From positions 1 to 57,691 of IMG/VR virus record IMGVR_UViG_3300037634_002466: a stretch of 57,691 nt of DNA; one strand, 5' to 3'. This stretch comes from a virus (lineage: Duplodnaviria; Caudoviricetes). Each line of letters begins with the position of its first letter. The first letter of the stretch is position 1. Shown here piece after piece: positions 6,002 to 14,218 of this stretch. Under the pieces are notes generated by a model. The model did not search any database and had not been told where the DNA came from. It worked only from the letters and a program-made list of their open reading frames with translations. The position numbers and the translations under genes were made by a program.

Positions 6002-7912
6002 TTAAGCTCCGCAAGCACCCCCAACCAAGCTACAAGCATCTCCAACACCTACCCCTACCTCGTCCTGAGAGCCCATGTAACGAGAGATATTATCAGGGGT
6101 ATTCGGTATCGCTACAAGGGGCTCATTCTCCTTAGACGCTGCCCTGTAGACTGTCATGCCCTTCAAATACGGCATGTAAACAAACGCTGTATCCATCACC
6201 TCTTTAGCTTCCATTGTACTGGGCAGATTGATAGTCTTGCTGATGCAGGAATCAATATATCTTTGGATAGTAGCCTGAACTGCTAGATGCTCATCTCCAT
6301 TAATATCATAAGCTCCAATGAATTTAGAAGTATCCTTACCTTCTTTATGATACTGCTCAAAAAGAGGGTCAACCACTAGCTTTTCTTTCCAGACACTACC
6401 TTGTCTATACCTACGGAGATACATAGCTGAAAAAATAGGCTCGATACCACTACTAACCCCCATAAGCATAGATATAGTACCACAAGGAGGGATAGTAAGC
6501 ATGACAGCATTACGAATTCCATACCGTTTAATAAGCATTCTAATCCTTGCTGGAAGTGTCTTCGCAAATTCTTCATTTAAGTATTGTTCTCTATCGAAGG
6601 CAGCAAAAGGAGCTTTGTCTCTCGACAGATACACCGACTGCTTATACGCCTCATCTCTAATGGTAGCAAACAATCTTTCTAAGAACTCCAAGCACTTCTC
6701 ACTTCCATACCTAAGACCTAACTTAATAAGCATGTAATGTAATCCAGTTACGCCCAGACCAACCCTTCTAGATCTCTCTGCCACTTCTTTACAATCATCA
6801 ACAGGAAACTTGTTAATAGACAGTACATTATCTAGGAACCTAATGCCACCCCTAACAGATTTTGCTAACCGTTTCCAGTCTACATCAGATCCATCATCGA
6901 GGACCATATTAGATAAGTTAACATTGCCAAGGCAGCAATTACCGTAGCTTGGTAGAGATATCTCTCCGCATGGATTTGTGGAGTCCAGGGATTCAAAATA
7001 AGAGACATTAGTGAAGCTATTGGCAAGATCAATATTGTAAACACCAGGGTCCCCAGACTCGACAGCATTTTCCCAAATAGTCTTCCAAAGATCCCTTGCT
7101 TTAATTTGTCCTTCTCCCACATATTCAAACTCATCCTTCCAATGTTTCTGATAGAAGTTATTAGCCCTAGTAATAGCATCTTCTTTATTAAGACCAGTAA
7201 CTACGATCTCTTCATAAGTTTCTGGTTCCTCTGAATTAACTCTAGCTAACACATAAGAATAATACTTCTTGTTATTAAATGTAAAGTACCAGTCCTCATC
7301 CAACTCAACCGCTTCCATAAACCTATTAGTAATAGCAACTGAAATGTTAAAGTTATTTAGCTCACCTTTGTCCAGTTTCACATGAAGAAAATCCATTAAA
7401 TCTGGATGTGTTACATTAAGTATACCCATGAGTGCAGTTCGACGGTTCTTACCTGCTCTAACATGAACCCCAATCTCATTGATCATTTTAAGTACAGACA
7501 CAGACCCTGGAGCAGAGTTAGCAACATTACCAATGTCATCCCCCTTAGGTCTAATCTTAGAGACATTAAATCCAATGCCTCCTCCAGCACAAGAGATCTG
7601 GTACATATCATCTACGGTCTTACCAATACTTTGTACAGTATCTTCAGGTACAATGACATAGCAGTTGAGCATATTGTAACTACCACTATTCCTACCTGCC
7701 CCATAGATAATTCTACCCCCAGGAATGAAGTCACCACTACCTACGATATCATAAAATAATTTCTCTATCTTCTCCTTATCCGCATCCTTCTCAGCAGTAG
7801 CTACAGACCTAGCAATAACTTTAGCTCTCTCAGCCCACTTGGTTTCTCCTGGGTATGCGTATCTCGTATCAAAGATCTCTTGCCCCAGTTCGGATAATTT
7901 TACTTGTGCCAT
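6002..7912 (-). CDS. nrdJ: Ribonucleotide reductase, class II (adenosylcobalamin-dependent)
   Basis: FIPGGRI, NCYV, GGGIG, RRTALM, TNPCGEISL, CCLG, PPCGT, SSGIEP, ISKTINLP, C-terminal CSLVGGAC; no nrdB-type subunit adjacent. Confidence 0.9.
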   Translation of the reverse strand: MAQVKLSELGQEIFDTRYAYPGETKWAERAKVIARSVATAEKDADKEKIEKLFYDIVGSGDFIPGGRIIYGAGRNSGSYNMLNCYVIVPEDTVQSIGKTVDDMYQISCAGGGIGFNVSKIRPKGDDIGNVANSAPGSVSVLKMINEIGVHVRAGKNRRTALMGILNVTHPDLMDFLHVKLDKGELNNFNISVAITNRFMEAVELDEDWYFTFNNKKYYSYVLARVNSEEPETYEEIVVTGLNKEDAITRANNFYQKHWKDEFEYVGEGQIKARDLWKTIWENAVESGDPGVYNIDLANSFTNVSYFESLDSTNPCGEISLPSYGNCCLGNVNLSNMVLDDGSDVDWKRLAKSVRGGIRFLDNVLSINKFPVDDCKEVAERSRRVGLGVTGLHYMLIKLGLRYGSEKCLEFLERLFATIRDEAYKQSVYLSRDKAPFAAFDREQYLNEEFAKTLPARIRMLIKRYGIRNAVMLTIPPCGTISMLMGVSSGIEPIFSAMYLRRYRQGSVWKEKLVVDPLFEQYHKEGKDTSKFIGAYDINGDEHLAVQATIQRYIDSCISKTINLPSTMEAKEVMDTAFVYMPYLKGMTVYRAASKENEPLVAIPNTPDNISRYMGSQDEVGVGVGDACSLVGGACGA

Positions 7913-9432
7913 ATTTTAGATATACCTTTCTTTTTCTCTACGGTTAACCTCTTGGACGAGTCTAATAATGTCTTAAGGTGTTTGTTGTGTGTGATAACGA
8001 ATATTTGTCTTGTCTTCTTCAACTCCAGCAATAGATTATAGAGTCCCTGTATACCATCCTCATCTATATTCTCAGCTACTTCATCGAAAAATAGTAGATT
8101 AGAGTGGTTTGTGTCTGTGAGTAGTAAAAGGTCTTTAAGAGCCATCATGATGGCAAGGTTTAGTTTTCTCTTTTCGCCTCCAGACAATGATATATAGTGT
8201 ATTTCTTGGTCACCAATTTTTATGTACTCAGATAATTCCTCATCAAATTCTAAAGAAAAGTTAGGATCTGTTAAATATGATAAGTAATAGTTAGTACGGT
8301 CATTAAAATACTCCAAAACATTACGAATAATATACTTAATAATTCCTTTCTCTGATAATGCTCTCTCCCAGAACCTCATCACCTGAGATCCTGTGTGGGA
8401 AATAGCTTTCTTATCCTCCAACTCCTTAATCTTCTCTTCCTTCTCCTTCCTTAGACCATCTAACACTTCAGCATTACCCTGAGCCAGTCTAGCATACTCT
8501 ACTGTGTATAGTGGGGCAGCATGACACACAGGATATTCCATGCTCTCCATTCTATCACGCACTCCATCCAATTCAAACTGTTTTTCTGCCATTTTCTCAA
8601 CAAAATCATCTTTGGGGACAGTCTGCCCGCAAGTAAGGCATTTAGGGTGCTTATCTGCCATCTTATTTTTATAATGTGATATAGCATACTCTAAAGACTC
8701 CTCTTCCCTCTCAAGCTTCTCCCATAGGCGAGTATTCTTATTGTAAATATCCCACTTCTTCTCTAGCTCATTCAGATCTATATTAATATCTGTCTGAATA
8801 TTTGATATCTTTCTATCCAAGTCTTCCACATCTAACTTAATGGTATGTATAACTGCGTCTGCTACCTTAATCCTTTGTGAGTACTCAGACTTATACTCTC
8901 TAATATGCTCACGCATATCAAAGATCTCATCAAGGTTAAGAAAGTTTCTGATAATGTCTCTCTTAACAACAGGGGTACAGTCTAAAAAGTTTACATCATT
9001 AGCCTGACCGAAGAACATAGATGCTAATAGAACCTTATGGTTTGTACCAAGCAACTCATCAATGATAGCTTGAGAATCATTAGCATGTTTAGCTGTAATA
9101 TCCTCCCCATCTAAGGTAAGCTTCATCTTAGTTGGCTTCTTACACCTTTCAATGCCAAGCATCTTAGCATTATCAAGTAAGATGTTACAGCTAACCACAA
9201 GTCCTTTACCTGCCTGGGAATTAACAAGAGAAGCTTCAGTACTCTTGCGTAGAGTCTTACCAGTTAGAACAAAGTAGATAGCTTCTACGATAGAGCTTTT
9301 ACCTGACCCATTGCTTCCACCTGTATCTAAGTTCTTACCCTTAATAATGGTTAGCCCATCAAACTTCTTCAAGTCTATACGGGCTTTCTTAATGGATAGG
9401 AAGTTTTGTATTGTTATATCTCTAATCTTCAT
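7900..9432 (-). CDS. gp46: SbcC/Rad50-like recombination ATPase
   Basis: Walker A GSNGSGKSS, zinc hook CLTCGQ, signature LSGGE, Walker B LFFDE, ITH. Confidence 0.93.
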   Translation of the reverse strand: MKIRDITIQNFLSIKKARIDLKKFDGLTIIKGKNLDTGGSNGSGKSSIVEAIYFVLTGKTLRKSTEASLVNSQAGKGLVVSCNILLDNAKMLGIERCKKPTKMKLTLDGEDITAKHANDSQAIIDELLGTNHKVLLASMFFGQANDVNFLDCTPVVKRDIIRNFLNLDEIFDMREHIREYKSEYSQRIKVADAVIHTIKLDVEDLDRKISNIQTDINIDLNELEKKWDIYNKNTRLWEKLEREEESLEYAISHYKNKMADKHPKCLTCGQTVPKDDFVEKMAEKQFELDGVRDRMESMEYPVCHAAPLYTVEYARLAQGNAEVLDGLRKEKEEKIKELEDKKAISHTGSQVMRFWERALSEKGIIKYIIRNVLEYFNDRTNYYLSYLTDPNFSLEFDEELSEYIKIGDQEIHYISLSGGEKRKLNLAIMMALKDLLLLTDTNHSNLLFFDEVAENIDEDGIQGLYNLLLELKKTRQIFVITHNKHLKTLLDSSKRLTVEKKKGISKIWHK

Positions 9433-10432
9433 CAGGTAGTGGTTCTCCTTTCTTGAGCAGAGAGTATCCTTCCATTAAATTTTCTTTAGTTAAGGTAGGA
9501 GATACATCGCAGTTCTCGACATAATCTGTAATGATCTGCTCGTTAATCGTAAACAAATCTCTATTAGGTTTATACTTAGATATTTCATCGTCATCTCCGA
9601 ACGCAGGGGCTACTTTAATATCTAACTCCTCTACACGCAAGTTCTCACATAACTCAGAGGCAGACTCATCTGATCGTAATGCTACTCGTAACATAGTATA
9701 CCAACTAGCGTCACTTAATTCCTTAGCACGATCATTGGCATCCTCTAAAGAAGTTACCACATGTCTGGGTCCGAATCGTATTTCTTTGAATTCTTCCCTG
9801 ACAGGTCCGAGGGCTTCTTCATGAAGGACAAGATAATATCCTTGGGTTCCTGCTTCACCATAGTTTGTGCTGTACGGAGTGCCAAGAATTGTAACCAATC
9901 CATTTTGTTTAAAGTTATGAATATGTCCAAGGTAAGTTTTACACTTAAAGTCAGAGATGCTAAGAGTAGAATCGGCATCACCAACAGAATTGAGACTACC
10001 GAGATAACCAAAGTGCCCAAAAGCTTGAGCGTTTTGAGGGCACCGTGACAGATACGCTCTAATAGTGTCCTCATTTTCGTAATGTGGGATGAAATATTTA
10101 TCATTATAAACTCCAAATCGGTTCCAAACATGGACATACTGAGATCTATACACTTCTAATGCTGTCAGACCATTATCTGATTTATCAGCAGAATCGTGAT
10201 TGCCTCTCAAAAGGTGTACAGTTATACTAGCATCTGTCCAAATGTCTAGCAACTCTTTAAACCCAACCAATACTTTTGGAGTGGGATTTCTATGCATGAA
10301 TATGTCCCCTAGAAAAATAATCTCTCCAGGATTCTCTTCAGCAATAATAGATTCTATAGTAGCTAGTTGAGCATTAAGATGCCCCCTACTTTTACTATCT
10401 AAATGAATGTCTCCTATAACTACAGTTCTCAT
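9422..10432 (-). CDS. gp47: SbcD/Mre11-like metallophosphoesterase nuclease
   Basis: GDIH, LGDIF, GNHD, GHIH motifs; adjacent to gp46. Confidence 0.93.
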   Translation of the reverse strand: MRTVVIGDIHLDSKSRGHLNAQLATIESIIAEENPGEIIFLGDIFMHRNPTPKVLVGFKELLDIWTDASITVHLLRGNHDSADKSDNGLTALEVYRSQYVHVWNRFGVYNDKYFIPHYENEDTIRAYLSRCPQNAQAFGHFGYLGSLNSVGDADSTLSISDFKCKTYLGHIHNFKQNGLVTILGTPYSTNYGEAGTQGYYLVLHEEALGPVREEFKEIRFGPRHVVTSLEDANDRAKELSDASWYTMLRVALRSDESASELCENLRVEELDIKVAPAFGDDDEISKYKPNRDLFTINEQIITDYVENCDVSPTLTKENLMEGYSLLKKGEPLPDED

Positions 10433-11505
10433 AGAACAGGTCTCCCATCTTTAAACTCTACCTCTTTACCATCTCCAAAGGAAGTACCAACTTCAGCATC
10501 AATCTTCAATGGGAGGTTAAACTGAATACCGAAGTCCTTTTTAACTGTCTTATATTTTACCATCTCATCGTACACAATCTCTAACACCTCCTCCACCTCA
10601 TCGTGAGGAGCGATAATCTCTACAGAGTCATGTACGGTTGCTACGATACGGGCATTGAGTCCCTTAAACGATTGCGTGATACCTTTGATCGCACAGAGCA
10701 GTATGTCAGACGCTGCGCTTTGGATTGTAAAGTTAAGTCCTTGTCGAAGCGCACCACTAGAAACTTGATTATCGCGTGAGAGTACATCAGGAAGATTCCT
10801 CCTCCTACCAAATATAGTATATGCATATTGGTTTTGTCTAATAAAATCATGGACGAAATCCATGTAGCGGAAAATGCCAGGATAAACTTCTGCGTACTTT
10901 TCAATTATCTTCTCTGCTCTTCTTTGTGAGATGCCTGTAGTTTCCGAAAGACGGTATGCTCCACCTCCATAAGCAATAAGGAACGATACCGCTTTAGCAA
11001 TCTGTCGTTCCTTCTTCTTGATCTTCTCTTCTTTCTTCTGGAACAACAAACTTGCCGTATAAGTATGTAGGTCTACCCCAGCACTAAATGCCTCCTGCAT
11101 CTTAGTTTCTTTAGCAATGTGCGCTAGAACCCTCAACTCCATCGCAGCATAGTCTACTGTAATAAAGGAGTATCCTTCAGGAGCAGTAAACATACTCCTA
11201 ATATTGTGCTTGTCCTCTCTGGGTAGAGTGTGGAACGATACACCCATATTACTATAAGAAGCACAACTAAGACGACCAGTTAAAGTCCCGTCCATTCGGT
11301 AATCTACATACACCTTATTAACATCATTAATATCTACTGCTCTCTTAATACCGTTCACATAAGTATTATACAGCTTTTGTACTTTGCGTAGCTCTAGTAA
11401 GGAATCTAACCAACCCTTAGCCTCACGCAAATCTTCCGTAGACTTCTTGCTAATGTAGTCTGCGCTGATCTGCTTGTCTAGGTTCTTATTATTTCTTCTT
11501 GCCAC
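10429..11505 (-). CDS. polA: Family A DNA polymerase, C-terminal piece (distal thumb, palm, fingers)
   Basis: ELRKVQKLYNTY, TGRLS, motif A DYAAMELRVLAH, DLH, motif B RQIAKAVSFLIAYG, NFTIQSAASD, motif C TVHDS; GTG start with GGAG upstream. Confidence 0.92.
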   Translation of the reverse strand: MARRNNKNLDKQISADYISKKSTEDLREAKGWLDSLLELRKVQKLYNTYVNGIKRAVDINDVNKVYVDYRMDGTLTGRLSCASYSNMGVSFHTLPREDKHNIRSMFTAPEGYSFITVDYAAMELRVLAHIAKETKMQEAFSAGVDLHTYTASLLFQKKEEKIKKKERQIAKAVSFLIAYGGGAYRLSETTGISQRRAEKIIEKYAEVYPGIFRYMDFVHDFIRQNQYAYTIFGRRRNLPDVLSRDNQVSSGALRQGLNFTIQSAASDILLCAIKGITQSFKGLNARIVATVHDSVEIIAPHDEVEEVLEIVYDEMVKYKTVKKDFGIQFNLPLKIDAEVGTSFGDGKEVEFKDGRPVL

Positions 11506-11974
11506 GCTTTTCTAACTCCGCTTCAATTTGGGTTAAAAGTGTATCTAGGGATTGTTTGTTAGTAGAAGGATTTCCTTTACTTGTCATTACAGGGGGGTAA
11601 AAACCAAACCCCGAATCAGAGTAGAGAATATCAATAAGATCTTTTGTGGACATCAAGTTTGCAGTCTTCGCTACCTTGTCTGACACATACAATCCATCTT
11701 CGATATCCATCAACAACTGATTCAGGGTTCGGCCCACCACACCCAACTCATCTAAGCTAACATCCAATCCTTTATATTCAATGTCTGCGAATACAGGGAA
11801 AAGAGGAGAAAGAAGTTTGTCTAGCACAGGTAATGTACCGTTCGCCACCAGTTTATCCCTTAGTTCATCATATATCCTCAAAGTATATGACGCATCTAAA
11901 GCATTACCTGTTGCACACTCCTCCAAAGTAAGTGCGGCCCAATCAAACTTCTTTCCCTCTTTTACTGTAAGCAT
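11489..11974 (-). CDS. polA: Family A DNA polymerase, middle piece (ExoIII helix and proximal thumb)
   Basis: ECATGNALDASYT (ExoIII-like YxxxD position), LFPVFADIEYKGL, ANLMSTKDLIDILY, TSKGNPSTNKQSL match the PolA thumb. Confidence 0.85.
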   Translation of the reverse strand: MLTVKEGKKFDWAALTLEECATGNALDASYTLRIYDELRDKLVANGTLPVLDKLLSPLFPVFADIEYKGLDVSLDELGVVGRTLNQLLMDIEDGLYVSDKVAKTANLMSTKDLIDILYSDSGFGFYPPVMTSKGNPSTNKQSLDTLLTQIEAELEKRGKKK

Positions 11975-12249
11975 TAGTTAACCACATCCCTTAACAGTAG
12001 TAACATACTTGTTGATCCAATTACCATTGCGCAAGCGCAACAGAATGTAATTTTTAATCGTGTTTTTGTGTCTTTGCTGTCTATGAAATACTTAATACTT
12101 AAGAAGTTAATGAAGGGGAGAGAGAACCCTAAAAACATCTGAGCTATGATCTGTTCATGTGCTATCAGGTAACCATAGCAAGAGGCAACAAAGTCTCCCA
12201 AAACAGTTAGGAGAAAAACAGCAAGGTATTTCTTCGGTGTCATTATCAT
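11974..12249 (-). CDS. Small integral membrane protein, about 3 TM helices
   Basis: Three hydrophobic stretches; TAATG stop/start overlaps at both ends; GGAG RBS. Confidence 0.7.
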   Translation of the reverse strand: MIMTPKKYLAVFLLTVLGDFVASCYGYLIAHEQIIAQMFLGFSLPFINFLSIKYFIDSKDTKTRLKITFCCACAMVIGSTSMLLLLRDVVN

Positions 12250-13259
12250 TAGAAGTTCTCCAATTCTTCGGGGAAGAAGAGTTTCACTAGATCCATGAGA
12301 CTCTTCGGGAGGACTTCGTTATACAGGTGTGCCATGATTTTTGTATCGTACACATTCACAGGAGAAATGCCATACTTGAGGAGGAACTTAATATCAAACT
12401 TACAGTTCTGGAGGATCTTCTTATTGGCTTGATTCTCCAGTACCCACTTCACATGAGTTACCAGTATACTAGCACCCTCATCCTCAGTAAAAGGACTTTC
12501 TCTATGAAATATCGGAATAACCCAATTTCCTTTAGACGTACTAAAGGCTATGGTCATAATGGTGTCTGTTAAAAAGTTAAGCCCTGTTGTCTCAATGTCA
12601 CACGCTAGGTCATTGCTAGTTTGGGCTAAATCATCACAGACTTTCTCCACATCTTCCATAGTAGAGAGCAGAGTGTAATCAAAGTCTGCCTTGGTTGTAT
12701 TTCCAAACACATACTTATCAACAGAGTTCTTAATGTCCCTCTCAAAGAGAAACTTATTCTTGGGTTCAACCACTACTTGATACGGGTGATACAAAGGAAC
12801 CACATTATAATCTTCGTACTTGTATAGAGACCCTCTCTTGTTAGTAATCCCAGACTTTTTAATAAGCATCTTCATGGCTAGGTTACCACAAACAAACACT
12901 AGCTTGGGTTTGTAGCTATCTATAGTGTGGGACAAGTGGGCTCTACAAATCTCCCTGTCTGAAGGGGTCATATCATCATCTCTAACACTAGGGCACTTTA
13001 CAGATGGAGAGAACGCATAAGAAACTTTAAGTGGGACTATAATATCTTCGATGAGGTCTTTTGCTTGCTTAGGTAAGGGGATACACTTCCCATTATTTTT
13101 ACAGGCATAGGACTCAGTAACGAACAAGACATCTACAGGCTTAACACTCTCATAATCAACAATACAATGTTCAGACTTGTTGATCTTAAGAATGGAGCAA
13201 CCCTCACATAGAGGATTGATACCCACTCCGCTCTCAGCATATAAATTATTAAGGTTCAT
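12249..13259 (-). CDS. Family A DNA polymerase, N-terminal piece: family-4 UDG-like Fe-S domain fused to 3'-5' exonuclease (ExoI, ExoII)
   Basis: CEGC...VKCP...EIC cluster cysteines, KPKLVFVCG, RG, PLYHP (UDG4); ACDIETTGL (ExoI), QNCKFD (ExoII), YDTKIMAHL. Confidence 0.88.
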   Translation of the reverse strand: MNLNNLYAESGVGINPLCEGCSILKINKSEHCIVDYESVKPVDVLFVTESYACKNNGKCIPLPKQAKDLIEDIIVPLKVSYAFSPSVKCPSVRDDDMTPSDREICRAHLSHTIDSYKPKLVFVCGNLAMKMLIKKSGITNKRGSLYKYEDYNVVPLYHPYQVVVEPKNKFLFERDIKNSVDKYVFGNTTKADFDYTLLSTMEDVEKVCDDLAQTSNDLACDIETTGLNFLTDTIMTIAFSTSKGNWVIPIFHRESPFTEDEGASILVTHVKWVLENQANKKILQNCKFDIKFLLKYGISPVNVYDTKIMAHLYNEVLPKSLMDLVKLFFPEELENF

Positions 13260-13599
13260 GGCGAAACACTACATAGACAACGACAGGTTTGAGGAACTGA
13301 TCTTATTATACCAGGAAGATCCAAGAAAACATGAGGAAGAGCTATTTTCTATGTTTGATCTTTTAATACAGAACATACTAGTATCTTACGGGTTTTCTGT
13401 AGACCTGGATGATGCCAAGCAAGACTGCTTCGTGCTTATTCTTAAAACCATAGAAAAATTTAAACCAGAGAACGGAAAGGCTTTTAATTACTTCACTACA
13501 ATTATAATGAATAATCTCAGACTTATCTACACAAAGAATAAGAAATATAAAGAGAAGCTGGATGCTTACGAAGAACTGATGAAAAATAAGTCTAGCTAA
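13258..13599 (+). CDS. gp55: Late-transcription sigma factor, T4 gp55-like
   Basis: MAKHYIDN..., DDAKQD, KFKPENGKAFNYFTTII resembles the gp55 region 2 (NF.PEK..AFAYFTQI). ATG 13258 is preferred over the TTG at 13177 because homologues begin near the HY(V/I)xN motif and AAGG precedes it. Confidence 0.75.
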   Translation: MAKHYIDNDRFEELILLYQEDPRKHEEELFSMFDLLIQNILVSYGFSVDLDDAKQDCFVLILKTIEKFKPENGKAFNYFTTIIMNNLRLIYTKNKKYKEKLDAYEELMKNKSS

Positions 13600-13895
13600 C
13601 CGTATCTTCGCATAGCTAACAACGAATACCCAACTATGTCCTGATAAGGATTCTCATCGAATGCGTCTGGGTCATTAGCTATACGAAAAAGTTTATCTAA
13701 TATCCTAGCAATCGTAAGGAGGTCACCATACTGATCTACTTGGATGCCGTTAGGAAACATTTCCTCCAAGCATCTCCCACTCCTACCAAAGGAATCACCA
13801 TAAGCTTTCTGCTTATCCTCAACAAGCTTCCCCACCATAGACCCTATATCTGAGTAGGTTCTTTCAGAAGCCTTCTTCGTATACTCTCCTTCCAT
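13596..13895 (-). CDS. Nucleotide-modification-associated domain 1 (Nmad1/DUF1599-like, all-alpha NTP-PPase fold)
   Basis: KQKAYGDSF...RILDKLFRI...ENPYQDIVGYSLL pattern. Confidence 0.7.
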   Translation of the reverse strand: MEGEYTKKASERTYSDIGSMVGKLVEDKQKAYGDSFGRSGRCLEEMFPNGIQVDQYGDLLTIARILDKLFRIANDPDAFDENPYQDIVGYSLLAMRRYG

Positions 13896-14218
13896 TACTT
13901 CTCCAAGCGTAGTCGTCTATAGATGTCAGTTACATGATCAGTGACGGTAAGTTTCTTATCCCTGCCTCTGCCCTCTAATACTACCAAGCACGGTGTCTTT
14001 TTCACACCCCAAATCACAAAACTATGTGGGGTGTCAAAAGAATTTACTATGCTTAAAGATATTTTAGGGGAGTTACCCTTTAATAGATTTGTAATCCTAG
14101 TAGATACGGGATCCCACAAAGAAGTATATAAAATATACTCCCTTTTACCACTAAACCTTTGATCTTTAATGAGTTTATTAATCTCATTCTCTTTAGAAAT
14201 AGTTCTAATATTATTCAT
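13895..14218 (-). CDS. Thioredoxin-fold protein lacking CxxC
   Basis: YTSLWDPVS at the WCxxC position; WGVKKTPCLVV cis-Pro motif. Confidence 0.55.
   Translation of the reverse strand: MNNIRTISKENEINKLIKDQRFSGKREYILYTSLWDPVSTRITNLLKGNSPKISLSIVNSFDTPHSFVIWGVKKTPCLVVLEGRGRDKKLTVTDHVTDIYRRLRLEK

What the first reader, a model, noticed from the sequence alone, without database searches (positions are those of the whole stretch)
10429..13259. Family A DNA polymerase encoded as three separate genes in a T4-type replication module
Seen: PolA motifs are distributed in collinear order over three ORFs. ORF 12249-13259 has UDG-like + ExoI + ExoII, ORF 11489-11974 has the ExoIII helix + proximal thumb, and ORF 10429-11505 has the distal thumb + motifs A/B/C. 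The two downstream pieces have their own RBS-like sequences. One break falls inside the exonuclease active-site domain, the other at the thumb tip, where both ends carry extra charged helical residues (IEAELEKRGKKK / MARRNNKNLDKQISADY...). No intein or intron signature was seen. Known: PolA is normally one chain; split PolB occurs in some T4 relatives. Inference: a heterotrimeric PolA whose proofreading site is assembled from two polypeptides. This is the strongest candidate for an undescribed system in this window.
Basis: partly seen in the sequence, partly recalled or inferred. Interest (0 to 1): 0.88.

Follow-up and report, generated by a model that had tools for sequence, protein, structure and literature searches.

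The report
DNA polymerase split into three genes
An uncultured marine phage, like a large group of its relatives, encodes its only DNA polymerase as three neighbouring, separately started genes, cut inside the proofreading domain and at the tip of the thumb; split polymerases are known, but this layout was not found in the papers searched.

Summary
They are collinear with Klenow.

The layout is not an error or decay. None of 80 related IMG/VR loci fuses two pieces. Break points are fixed, start codons are conserved, and stops and starts overlap. dN/dS is 0.03-0.13 in every piece. Four relatives rated 99-100% complete carry no other polymerase.

A search of 1.84 billion representative proteins found 81 clusters of stand-alone P2-sized proteins. 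It also found 7 two-piece forms (P2+P3 fused, same first break) and fully fused UDG-PolAs. On a quick tree, split forms are one clade and three-piece forms nest inside it, suggesting two successive fissions.

All split forms replace the ExoIII tyrosine with glycine (GNxxD).

The first break is also an insertion site. The window's 91-aa cassette is 85-87% identical in phages whose flanks are 52-62% identical.

Physical assembly is inferred, not shown. Split PolAs are already known (T7-like cyanophages, LUZ24, OM43 phages), so this is a new variant of a known kind.

The parts
12249..13259 (-). P1, 336 aa: family-4-UDG-like domain plus the first two-thirds of the 3'-5' exonuclease domain (ExoI D221/E223; ExoII N285, F288, D289)
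   Evidence: ORF. Pfam UDG and exo1 (profile 3-127 of 173). Profile against PDB: UDG 4zbx E 9.9e-14, Klenow chain 7-136 E 6e-7. Invariant residues in a 46-sequence alignment.
11974..12249 (-). 91-aa hydrophobic ORF (cassette) inserted exactly at the P1/P2 junction. Its ATG overlaps the P1 stop by 1 nt and its stop overlaps the P2 ATG by 1 nt. It is not part of the polymerase.
   Evidence: ORF. No Pfam or PHROG family. Present in 8 of 72 records and absent from close relatives L002/L003/L006. Nucleotide identity 85-87% to L034/L064 where flanks are 52-62%.
11489..11974 (-). P2, 161 aa: ExoIII helix (C20, G23, N24, D27 = GNAxD) plus proximal thumb helices. A bridge piece shared by the exonuclease and polymerase domains.
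   Evidence: ORF. Klenow chain 162-295. Profile match to Klenow chain 159-294 at E 9.6e-11. Alignment A1. All-helical model with pTM 0.31.
10429..11505 (-). P3, 358 aa, GTG start: last thumb helix, palm and fingers with motif A (D118), motif B (K171, F175, Y179) and motif C (H292, D293, S294)
   Evidence: ORF. PF00476 positions 60-380 of 381. Bst and Klenow alignments. Invariant residues. Model pTM 0.72 with N-terminal 100 residues of low confidence.
11489..11519 (-). P2/P3 junction: P3 GTG (11503-11505) lies 17 nt inside the end of P2 (stop codon 11489-11491). A GGAG at 11516-11519 sits 10 nt upstream of the GTG.
   Evidence: Sequence printed. In 75 of 76 records P2 and P3 overlap by 4, 8, 17 or 23 nt; an SD-like word is present in 70 of 76.
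9422..10432 (-). Context: SbcD-like (Metallophos) gene whose start overlaps the P3 stop by 4 nt. With the SbcC-like gene (7900-9432) it continues the chain of overlapping genes.
13258..13599 (+). Context: divergent sigma-70 region-2 protein. Same synteny (sigma | P1 | P2...) in two-piece relatives L083, L090 and L091.

Best explanation
The phage's only DNA polymerase, a UDG-exonuclease-PolA enzyme, is made as three separate polypeptides from three translationally coupled genes.

P1 carries the UDG-like domain and exonuclease motifs I and II. P2 carries exonuclease motif III and the first thumb helices. P3 carries the last thumb helix, the palm and the fingers.

Inferred, not shown: the three chains co-fold into one Klenow-like enzyme. 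P2 would be the bridge that completes the proofreading site with P1 and the thumb with P3.

Inferred from the tree and from two-piece relatives: the layout arose by two successive gene fissions of a fused UDG-PolA. The first fell in a loop between ExoII and ExoIII. The second, later, fell at the thumb tip.

The first fission site has since served as a place where small extra genes are inserted. The window's 91-aa ORF is one of them.
For: Shown by tools:
1. Collinear mapping of P1, P2 and P3 on Klenow and Pfam models, without overlap or gap in catalytic motifs.
2. Of 81 records (the window plus the 80 best of 197 IMG/VR relatives), 76 hold both P2 and P3 and 72 hold both P1 and P2. None has two pieces in one open frame.
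3. The P1 stop and P2 start overlap by 1 nt in 37 of 72 records. The other 35 carry inserts of 184-1565 nt.
4. P2 and P3 overlap by 8 nt (49 records), 4 nt (11), 17 nt (9) or 23 nt (6).
5. P3 always has a start codon at the same place (GTG 63, ATG 13). An SD-like word lies upstream in 70 of 76 records.
6. dN/dS where dS is not saturated: P1 0.058-0.132 (3 of 10 pairs), P2 0.056-0.116 (7 of 10), P3 0.029-0.070 (7 of 10).
7. Catalytic residues are invariant: ExoI D/E, ExoII D, ExoIII D, and motifs A, B and C.
8. Motif C HDS is shared with fused UDG-PolA relatives, which have HDS or HDA.
9. No PolB and no Pol III alpha was found, and exactly one PolA, in 5 of 5 related records. Four of these are rated 99-100% complete.
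10. Among the best 150 of 165 hits in 1.84 billion representatives, 81 are 150-185 aa stand-alone P2-sized proteins. Seven are 480-563 aa P2+P3 fusions that start at the same Met-Leu-Thr.
11. Three of three two-piece loci examined have a P1-like gene directly upstream in the same synteny.
12. The nearest proteins of 628 aa or more are only 31-37% identical to P3.
13. Quick ML tree of 53 polymerase domains: all split forms form one clade (SH-aLRT 100), the three-piece forms form one clade inside it (97), and the two-piece forms are basal.
14. Contigs of 4 marine metagenome runs from 4 studies cover the stretch. They show only three indel places, and none joins two frames.
Against: - No protein, RNA or binding evidence was obtained, so assembly is inference from homology.
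- The ExoIII tyrosine (Klenow Tyr at D-4) is Gly in all split forms. Proofreading may therefore be altered or weakened.
- In 30 of the 35 records with an insert, no SD-like word precedes the P2 start. How P2 is translated there is open.
- One relative (L036) has a P2 broken by a deletion and frameshift.
- P2 alone gives a non-compact model (pTM 0.31). The N-terminal 100 residues of P3 are of low confidence. This fits dependence on partners but proves nothing.
- The tree is a quick search with LG+G4 and SH-aLRT only. It used 28 of the 51 relatives in alignment A3 as three-piece rows and contains several long branches.
Confidence: 0.8

Rival explanations
1. The pieces are rejoined during translation. 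A programmed ribosomal frameshift at the P2/P3 overlap (or at TAATG between P1 and P2) yields a fused chain.
For: P2 and P3 overlap, and P3 lies in the +1 frame in 64 of 75 overlapping records (overlaps of 8, 17 and 23 nt). A conserved GAGGAG lies upstream.
Against: - The required shift differs among relatives: +1 for the 8/17/23-nt overlaps and -1 for the 4-nt ATGA overlap (11 records), with no shared slippery sequence.
- A start codon is kept at the same position in 76 of 76 records.
- The P3 frame is closed by a stop a few codons (2 to 10 in the calls examined) upstream of that start.
- 35 of 72 records have whole genes, some on the opposite strand, between P1 and P2.
Confidence: 0.05
2. 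The pieces work apart. P3 is an exonuclease-free polymerase on its own, and P1 and P2 have other or no roles, so there is no heterotrimer.
For: P3 holds motifs A, B and C, and its palm and fingers fold with high confidence alone. T7-like cyanophages show that exo and pol can be separate genes (PMC10201439, passages read).
Against: - P3 lacks half of the thumb, and P2 has no fold of its own (pTM 0.31).
- P2 is kept with fixed ends in 81 representative clusters, always with the ExoIII Asp.
- All three pieces show dN/dS of 0.13 or less and tight stop/start coupling.
- PMC10201439 (discussion passage read) states that PolAs need the exonuclease domain for stability.
Confidence: 0.08
3. A decaying or broken gene (pseudogene) in a defective phage.
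For: One relative, L036, has a frameshifted P2.
Against: - dN/dS is 0.03-0.13 in all pieces.
- Break points are identical down to 40-50% identity.
- Catalytic residues are invariant.
- No other polymerase was found in complete relatives.
Confidence: 0.02
4. Assembly or sequencing artefact (indels) in this contig.
For: None found.
Against: - The same junctions occur in 80 independently assembled IMG/VR loci.
- They also occur in contigs of 4 runs from 4 studies, with no frame-joining indel.
Confidence: 0.01

Closest known systems
Split PolA of T7-like cyanophages (S-SBP1, S-TIP37; clade B). Czernecki et al. 2023, PMC10201439 (abstract and passages read); PMC12695635 (passages read)
   Same: A natural gene fission of a phage family A polymerase into adjacent genes with overlapping stop and start. 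The pieces are presumed to reassemble.
   Different: - Two pieces, not three.
- The break lies between the exonuclease and polymerase domains, not inside the exonuclease fold or in the thumb.
- No UDG domain.
- Described as recent, whereas the split here spans a clade down to about 30% identity.
LUZ24-like (Bruynoghevirus) PolA: 'exonuclease subunit / part I', 'part II', and in LUZ24 a further 93-aa piece (record NC_010325; PMC3890496, passages read)
   Same: PolA is annotated in two or three ORFs. Small genes, including membrane proteins, sit between the exonuclease piece and the polymerase piece.
   Different: - The third LUZ24 piece is the motif C end (Pfam positions 295-381). It follows an endonuclease VII gene, so that break is elsewhere and may be intron- or homing-related.
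- No detectable similarity of gp25 or gp34 to the P2 profile.
- Podovirus of 45 kb.
[quoted passage not shown]
   Same: [quoted passage not shown]
   Different: - Two pieces; the break point is not given in the passages read.
- P2 finds no tblastn match in the 50,697 phage records searched, although records near the window may be left out of that collection.
Fused UDG-PolA enzymes (N4-like cluster 17, SPO1, SP-15/YerA41). PMC10201439 (passages read); Missoury et al. preprint 10.1101/2025.03.26.645540 (abstract and one passage read)
   Same: Same domain order: family-4-type UDG, 3'-5' exonuclease, PolA. Motif C is HDS or HDA. They are the nearest fused relatives on the tree.
   Different: - One polypeptide.
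- ExoIII has the usual Tyr (YNxxD) where the split clade has Gly.
Split family B polymerases (PhiKZ DNAP-N + DNAP-C, preprint PMC13648687, abstract read; archaeal and T4-relative split PolB, recalled)
   Same: A replicative polymerase made of separately encoded parts that form a stable complex.
   Different: A different polymerase family and fold. Two catalytic pieces.

Membership tests
Family A DNA polymerase (PF00476) | Motifs A (DYSQIELR-type Asp), B (RxxAKxxNFxxxYG-type Lys/Tyr) and C (HD) in order, scoring over the Pfam cut-off | tested here: met
   P3 scores 265.6 bits against a cut-off of 34.3. D118, K171, F175, Y179, H292 and D293 are invariant in 52 sequences.
Family A DNA polymerase (PF00476) | Whole polymerase domain (thumb, palm, fingers) on one polypeptide | tested here: not met
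   P3 covers profile positions 60-380 only. The first part of the thumb is on P2. Two-piece relatives cover positions 2-380 in one chain.
DEDDy 3'-5' exonuclease of PolA (PF01612) | ExoI DxE and ExoII (N)xxx(F/Y)D | tested here: met
   D221, E223, F288 and D289 are invariant; N285 is kept in at least 90% of 46 sequences.
DEDDy 3'-5' exonuclease of PolA (PF01612) | ExoIII YxxxD: Tyr four residues before the last Asp | tested here: not met
   The Asp is kept (D27), but D-4 is Gly in 47 of 47 aligned P2, in 81 of 81 stand-alone representatives and in 7 of 7 two-piece forms. Twelve of 14 fused relatives have Tyr.
Family 4 uracil-DNA glycosylase (PF03167) | Four Cys of the Fe-S cluster and motif B His-Pro | tested here: inconclusive
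   C18, C21, C89, C105 and P159 are invariant, and H158 is kept in at least 90% of sequences. That these Cys are the cluster ligands is recalled, not tested.
Family 4 uracil-DNA glycosylase (PF03167) | Motif A GE(A/G)PG (recalled) | tested here: not met
   Aligned to TESYA in the window. Relatives read LSDS; an acidic residue is kept, but the Gly and Pro are lost.
Exo|pol split PolA of T7-like cyanophages | Break between the exonuclease and polymerase domains; two genes | tested here: not met
   Break 1 lies between ExoII and ExoIII and break 2 in the thumb. Three genes.
Intron- or intein-interrupted polymerase gene | Group I/II intron RNA or intein/homing endonuclease at the break | tested here: not met
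   No intron family in 9500-14000 at E up to 1. Junctions are 1-nt or 4-23-nt overlaps. Inserted ORFs have no endonuclease family. The pieces sum to 855 aa against 787 aa for a fused relative.

The most novel reading that the evidence does not exclude
Two successive fissions turned a fused UDG-PolA into an obligate three-subunit replicase.

A 160-aa bridge subunit supplies the last carboxylate of the proofreading site and half of the thumb. The first fission went with a rebuilt ExoIII site (YNxxD to GNxxD).

That break in an essential gene has since served as a landing pad for translationally coupled genes. These include a TAATG-bounded 91-aa membrane-protein cassette that moves between phages whose flanks are only 52-62% identical.

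Insertion of such a gene may have caused the fission in the first place.
Probability: 0.3. Interest if true: 0.7.

Novelty: new variant of a known kind. Interest (0 to 1): 0.55.

Why it matters
- It gives two natural, long-tested cut sites in the Klenow fold: one through the proofreading domain and one at the thumb tip. These could guide split-polymerase engineering. They also raise the question of how an active site divided between chains stays accurate.
- It documents stepwise fission (fused, two-piece, three-piece) within one polymerase lineage.
- It affects annotation. P2 has no Pfam or PHROG family, and P3 looks like a truncated PolA. Surveys of marine viral PolA may therefore miscount or discard this abundant clade, whose sequence is held by 24 marine metagenome runs of 19 studies.
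- The exact correlation between splitting and the Tyr-to-Gly change in ExoIII is a directly testable structure-function question.

Tried and rejected
**Complex prediction.** P1, P2 and P3 were sent as alignments with P2 as the partner. The verdict was 'no answer': score 0.89, but the control with chain 3 replaced scored 0.87. This is neither support nor evidence against binding.

**Fold search.** The P2 model was searched against PDB with Foldseek. No match reached E <= 0.001; the best was 3hpo_A at E 0.2. The stand-alone model (pTM 0.31) is too loose for this test.

**RNA evidence.** No RNA holder was listed, so expression could not be examined.

**Cultured relatives.**
- tblastn of P2 found nothing in 50,697 phage records.
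- The best match for P3 was 33% identity, to Herelleviridae PolA.

**Two-piece protein P0224.** Only an unrelated 21% match (L082) was found, so its context is unknown.

**LUZ24 break point.** I asked whether LUZ24 shares the break. hhalign of the P2 profile against gp34 and gp25 gave probabilities of 0.2 and 0.1. No similarity was detectable, so the question stays open.

**Lipoprotein-like inserts.** I tested whether the roughly 166-aa opposite-strand inserts are mobile like the 91-aa cassette. Mean identity was 0.77, against 0.74 and 0.61 for the flanks. Only 3 of 45 pairs exceeded both flanks by 0.1. The idea is not supported.

**Motif TATAATATATAG in the window.** 24 matches with up to 2 mismatches, against 24.5 expected. 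It is not a window-wide motif.

**Promoter and terminator scan of 10200-13700.** Promoter-like sites were at chance level (10 against 9.3 expected) and terminator-like sites only slightly above it (4 against 2.1, sd 1.7).

**ESM Atlas for the 91-aa ORF.** Only viral hypothetical proteins were returned.

**Rejected readings.** Frameshift fusion, pseudogene, artefact, and intron or intein; see the rival explanations.

**Literature.** Searches found no description of this three-piece layout. The supplements of PMC10201439, which list unclassified UDG-PolAs, might include members of this clade.

Full report
**What is there.** On the minus strand of the window lie four tightly packed ORFs.
- P1, 12249-13259, 336 aa.
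- A 91-aa hydrophobic ORF, 11974-12249.
- P2, 11489-11974, 161 aa.
- P3, 10429-11505, 358 aa, with a GTG start.

P1 matches Pfam UDG (E 7.5e-8). It also matches the PolA 3'-5' exonuclease model, but only over positions 3-127 of 173. P3 matches the PolA model over positions 60-380 of 381 (E 9.1e-79). P2 has no Pfam or PHROG family.

P2 nevertheless aligns to Klenow chain residues 162-295 at E 1.5e-5. As a 47-sequence profile it aligns to residues 159-294 at E 9.6e-11. The P1 profile aligns to Klenow chain 7-136 and to a family-4 UDG, 4zbx, at E 9.9e-14. P3 aligns to Klenow chain 303-579. The three pieces are therefore collinear with Klenow.

Adding 323 to chain numbers gives Pol I numbering; that offset is recalled, not tested. 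On that numbering:
- Break 1 falls near residue 472-475, between ExoII and ExoIII.
- Break 2 falls between about 617 and 626.

**Is it real and conserved?** A scan of IMG/VR found 197 relatives of P3, and the best 80 were kept. Local tblastn and ORF tracing were run over these 80 loci plus the window, 81 records in all.
- 76 records hold both P2 and P3.
- 72 records hold both P1 and P2.
- The missing cases are cut by contig ends.
- No record has two pieces in one open frame.

At the first junction, the P1 stop and P2 start overlap by one base (TAATG type) in 37 of 72 records. The other 35 carry inserts of 184-1565 nt.

At the second junction, P2 and P3 overlap by 8 nt (49 records), 4 nt (11), 17 nt (9) or 23 nt (6). 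The one exception is L036, whose P2 carries a deletion and frameshift.

P3 always starts at the same aligned position (GTG 63, ATG 13). A GAGGAG-like word lies about 10 nt upstream in 70 of 76 records. The frame relation of P2 to P3 differs among relatives (+1 in 64 records, -1 in 11) without any shared slippery site. This argues against programmed frameshifting and for reinitiation or independent initiation.

No intron family was found in 9500-14000.

Contigs of four marine metagenome runs from four studies cover the whole stretch. They show only three indel places:
- A compensated -1/+1 pair in one contig.
- An in-frame 3-nt loss in codon 7 of P3.

**Selection and indispensability.** Pairwise dN/dS, where dS is not saturated, is as follows.

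| Piece | dN/dS | Pairs usable |
|---|---|---|
| P1 | 0.058-0.132 | 3 of 10 |
| P2 | 0.056-0.116 | 7 of 10 |
| P3 | 0.029-0.070 | 7 of 10 |

The catalytic residues are invariant across 46-52 sequences. These are ExoI D221/E223, ExoII F288/D289, ExoIII D27, motif A D118, motif B K171/F175/Y179 and motif C H292/D293.

Motif C reads HDS rather than HDE. The fused UDG-PolA relatives read HDS or HDA too, so this is a lineage trait and not decay.

The window's record is only about 52% complete and has one PolA match. Five related records were also searched, four of them rated 99-100% complete. Each has one PolA match, no PolB and no Pol III alpha.

**How wide, and how did it arise?** phmmer with P2 against 1.84 billion representative proteins gave 165 hits. 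The best 150 break down as follows.

| Class | Count |
|---|---|
| 150-185 aa, stand-alone P2 size | 81 |
| Under 150 aa, probably fragments | 29 |
| 480-563 aa, starting Met-Leu-Thr/Ser | 7 |
| 186-330 aa | 9 |
| Longer | 24 |

The seven 480-563 aa proteins start with the same residues as P2. Of the five of these scanned against Pfam, four carry the whole PolA domain and P0221 matches only positions 58-380, as P3 does. They are two-piece forms, with P2 and P3 fused.

The three two-piece loci I could fetch are L083, L090 and L091. Each has a P1-like gene directly upstream in the same synteny with the divergent sigma gene. L090 also has a different 92-aa ORF inserted at the junction.

A fully fused UDG-exo-PolA of 787 aa (P0227) is among the distant hits. 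Proteins of 628 aa or more are at most 37% identical to P3.

A quick ML tree of 53 polymerase domains gave these groupings:
- All split forms are in one clade (SH-aLRT 100).
- The 29 three-piece rows form one clade inside it (97).
- The two-piece forms are basal.
- Fused UDG-PolAs lie outside.

The simplest history is one fission inside the exonuclease domain, followed by a second at the thumb tip. The tree is a short search, used only part of the sequences and has long branches. The order of events is therefore likely, not proven.

**A rebuilt ExoIII.** In Klenow and in 12 of 14 fused relatives aligned, ExoIII reads Y-x-x-x-D. Every split form has Gly at that position, giving G-N-x-x-D:
- 47 of 47 P2 in alignment A1.
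- 81 of 81 stand-alone representatives.
- 7 of 7 two-piece forms.

The four metal-binding carboxylates are kept. I therefore infer that the exonuclease is active but works without the usual tyrosine. This is untested.

**Mechanism proposed.**

Shown:
- Three separately started, selected genes together hold one complete set of UDG-PolA motifs.

Inferred:
- The chains are made in near-equal amounts by translational coupling. The chain of overlapping stops and starts runs P1, 91-aa ORF, P2, P3, SbcD-like, SbcC-like.
- They co-fold into a Klenow-like enzyme.

On its own, P2 gives an all-helical, non-compact model (pLDDT 73, pTM 0.31). P3 gives confident palm and fingers but a poorly defined N-terminal 100 residues. 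This is what one would expect of parts that need each other, but it proves nothing.

**The junction as an insertion site.** The inserts at the first break belong to several unrelated families.
- The 91-aa hydrophobic ORF on the same strand (8 records, including the window).
- A roughly 166-aa protein with a signal peptide and lipobox-like Cys, on the opposite strand.
- Others.

The window's cassette is bounded by TAATG at both ends. It is 85-87% identical at the nucleotide level to the copies in L034 and L064, where the adjoining 300 nt of P1 and P2 are only 52-62% identical. Close relatives L002, L003 and L006 lack it. One metagenome contig skips it exactly (weak, with 30 letters on the shorter side). 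That points to recent transfer of this cassette between diverged phages. The lipoprotein-like family shows no such excess.

**Comparison with what is known.** Natural splits of PolA are in print.
- Exo|pol in T7-like cyanophages, described as the first such case (PMC10201439, abstract and passages read; PMC12695635, passages read).
- OM43 phages with a small ORF inserted (PMC10580990, passages read).
- LUZ24-like phages (PMC3890496, passages read).

The LUZ24 record even lists three PolA ORFs. Its third piece is the motif C end and follows an endonuclease VII gene.

Fused UDG-PolAs are described structurally (PMC10201439; preprint 10.1101/2025.03.26.645540, abstract read). Split PolB is known in PhiKZ (PMC13648687, abstract read).

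Seven full-text searches found none of the following:
- A PolA cut inside the exonuclease fold and again in the thumb.
- A fused, two-piece, three-piece series.
- The Tyr-to-Gly ExoIII change.

Supplements could not be read.

**Verdict.** I rate it a new variant of a known kind, with interest 0.55.

Noticed in passing
window 11974-12249 (-); L034:5253-5528; L064:5253-5527: The 91-aa hydrophobic ORF is bounded by TAATG on both sides. It is 85-87% identical in nucleotides between phages whose flanking polymerase DNA is 52-62% identical. It is absent from the closest relatives (L002, L003, L006). It looks like a mobile, translationally coupled cassette. No family or function was found (Pfam, PHROGs, ESM Atlas).
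   Followed up: partly
L027:5012-5499, L053, L061, L072 and others (inserts of 450-542 nt between P1 and P2): Many relatives carry, on the opposite strand, a roughly 166-aa ORF with a signal peptide and a lipobox-like LSSC. The P2 ATG is then directly preceded by a conserved TATAATATATAG(C/T)C with no SD-like word. This may be a promoter giving a leaderless or near-leaderless P2 mRNA, or the promoter of the inserted gene.
   Followed up: partly
window 13257-13260: The start codons of P1 (minus strand) and the divergent sigma-like gene (plus strand, MAKHY...) share the palindrome CATG. There is therefore no intergenic spacer here; relatives have 16-26 nt.
   Followed up: no
window 12249-13259 (P1, residues 1-190): The UDG-like domain keeps four invariant Cys (C18, C21, C89, C105) and a His-Pro motif. 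It has TESYA (LSDS in relatives) where family 4 UDGs have GE(A/G)PG. Whether it still removes uracil is open.
   Followed up: partly
L036:5590-6010: One relative has a P2 with a roughly 25-residue deletion and a frameshift, next to the largest insert (1565 nt). It may be a defective genome or an assembly error.
   Followed up: partly
P0216 (323 aa) and P0219 (280 aa): Two proteins start like P2 but carry only part of the PolA domain (Pfam positions 3-204 and 23-127). They are either cut by contig ends or are further break points in the fingers.
   Followed up: no
L089 (LUZ24, NC_010325 15146-20305): The LUZ24 PolA is annotated as three ORFs: gp25 (exonuclease subunit, 169 aa), gp34 (393 aa) and gp36 (93 aa, motif C end). 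Ten genes lie between the first two and an endonuclease VII gene before the last.
   Followed up: partly
window 7900-13259 (-): Six consecutive genes (P1, 91-aa ORF, P2, P3, SbcD-like, SbcC-like) are linked by overlapping stops and starts (1, 1, 17, 4 and 11 nt). This suggests one translationally coupled unit.
   Followed up: no
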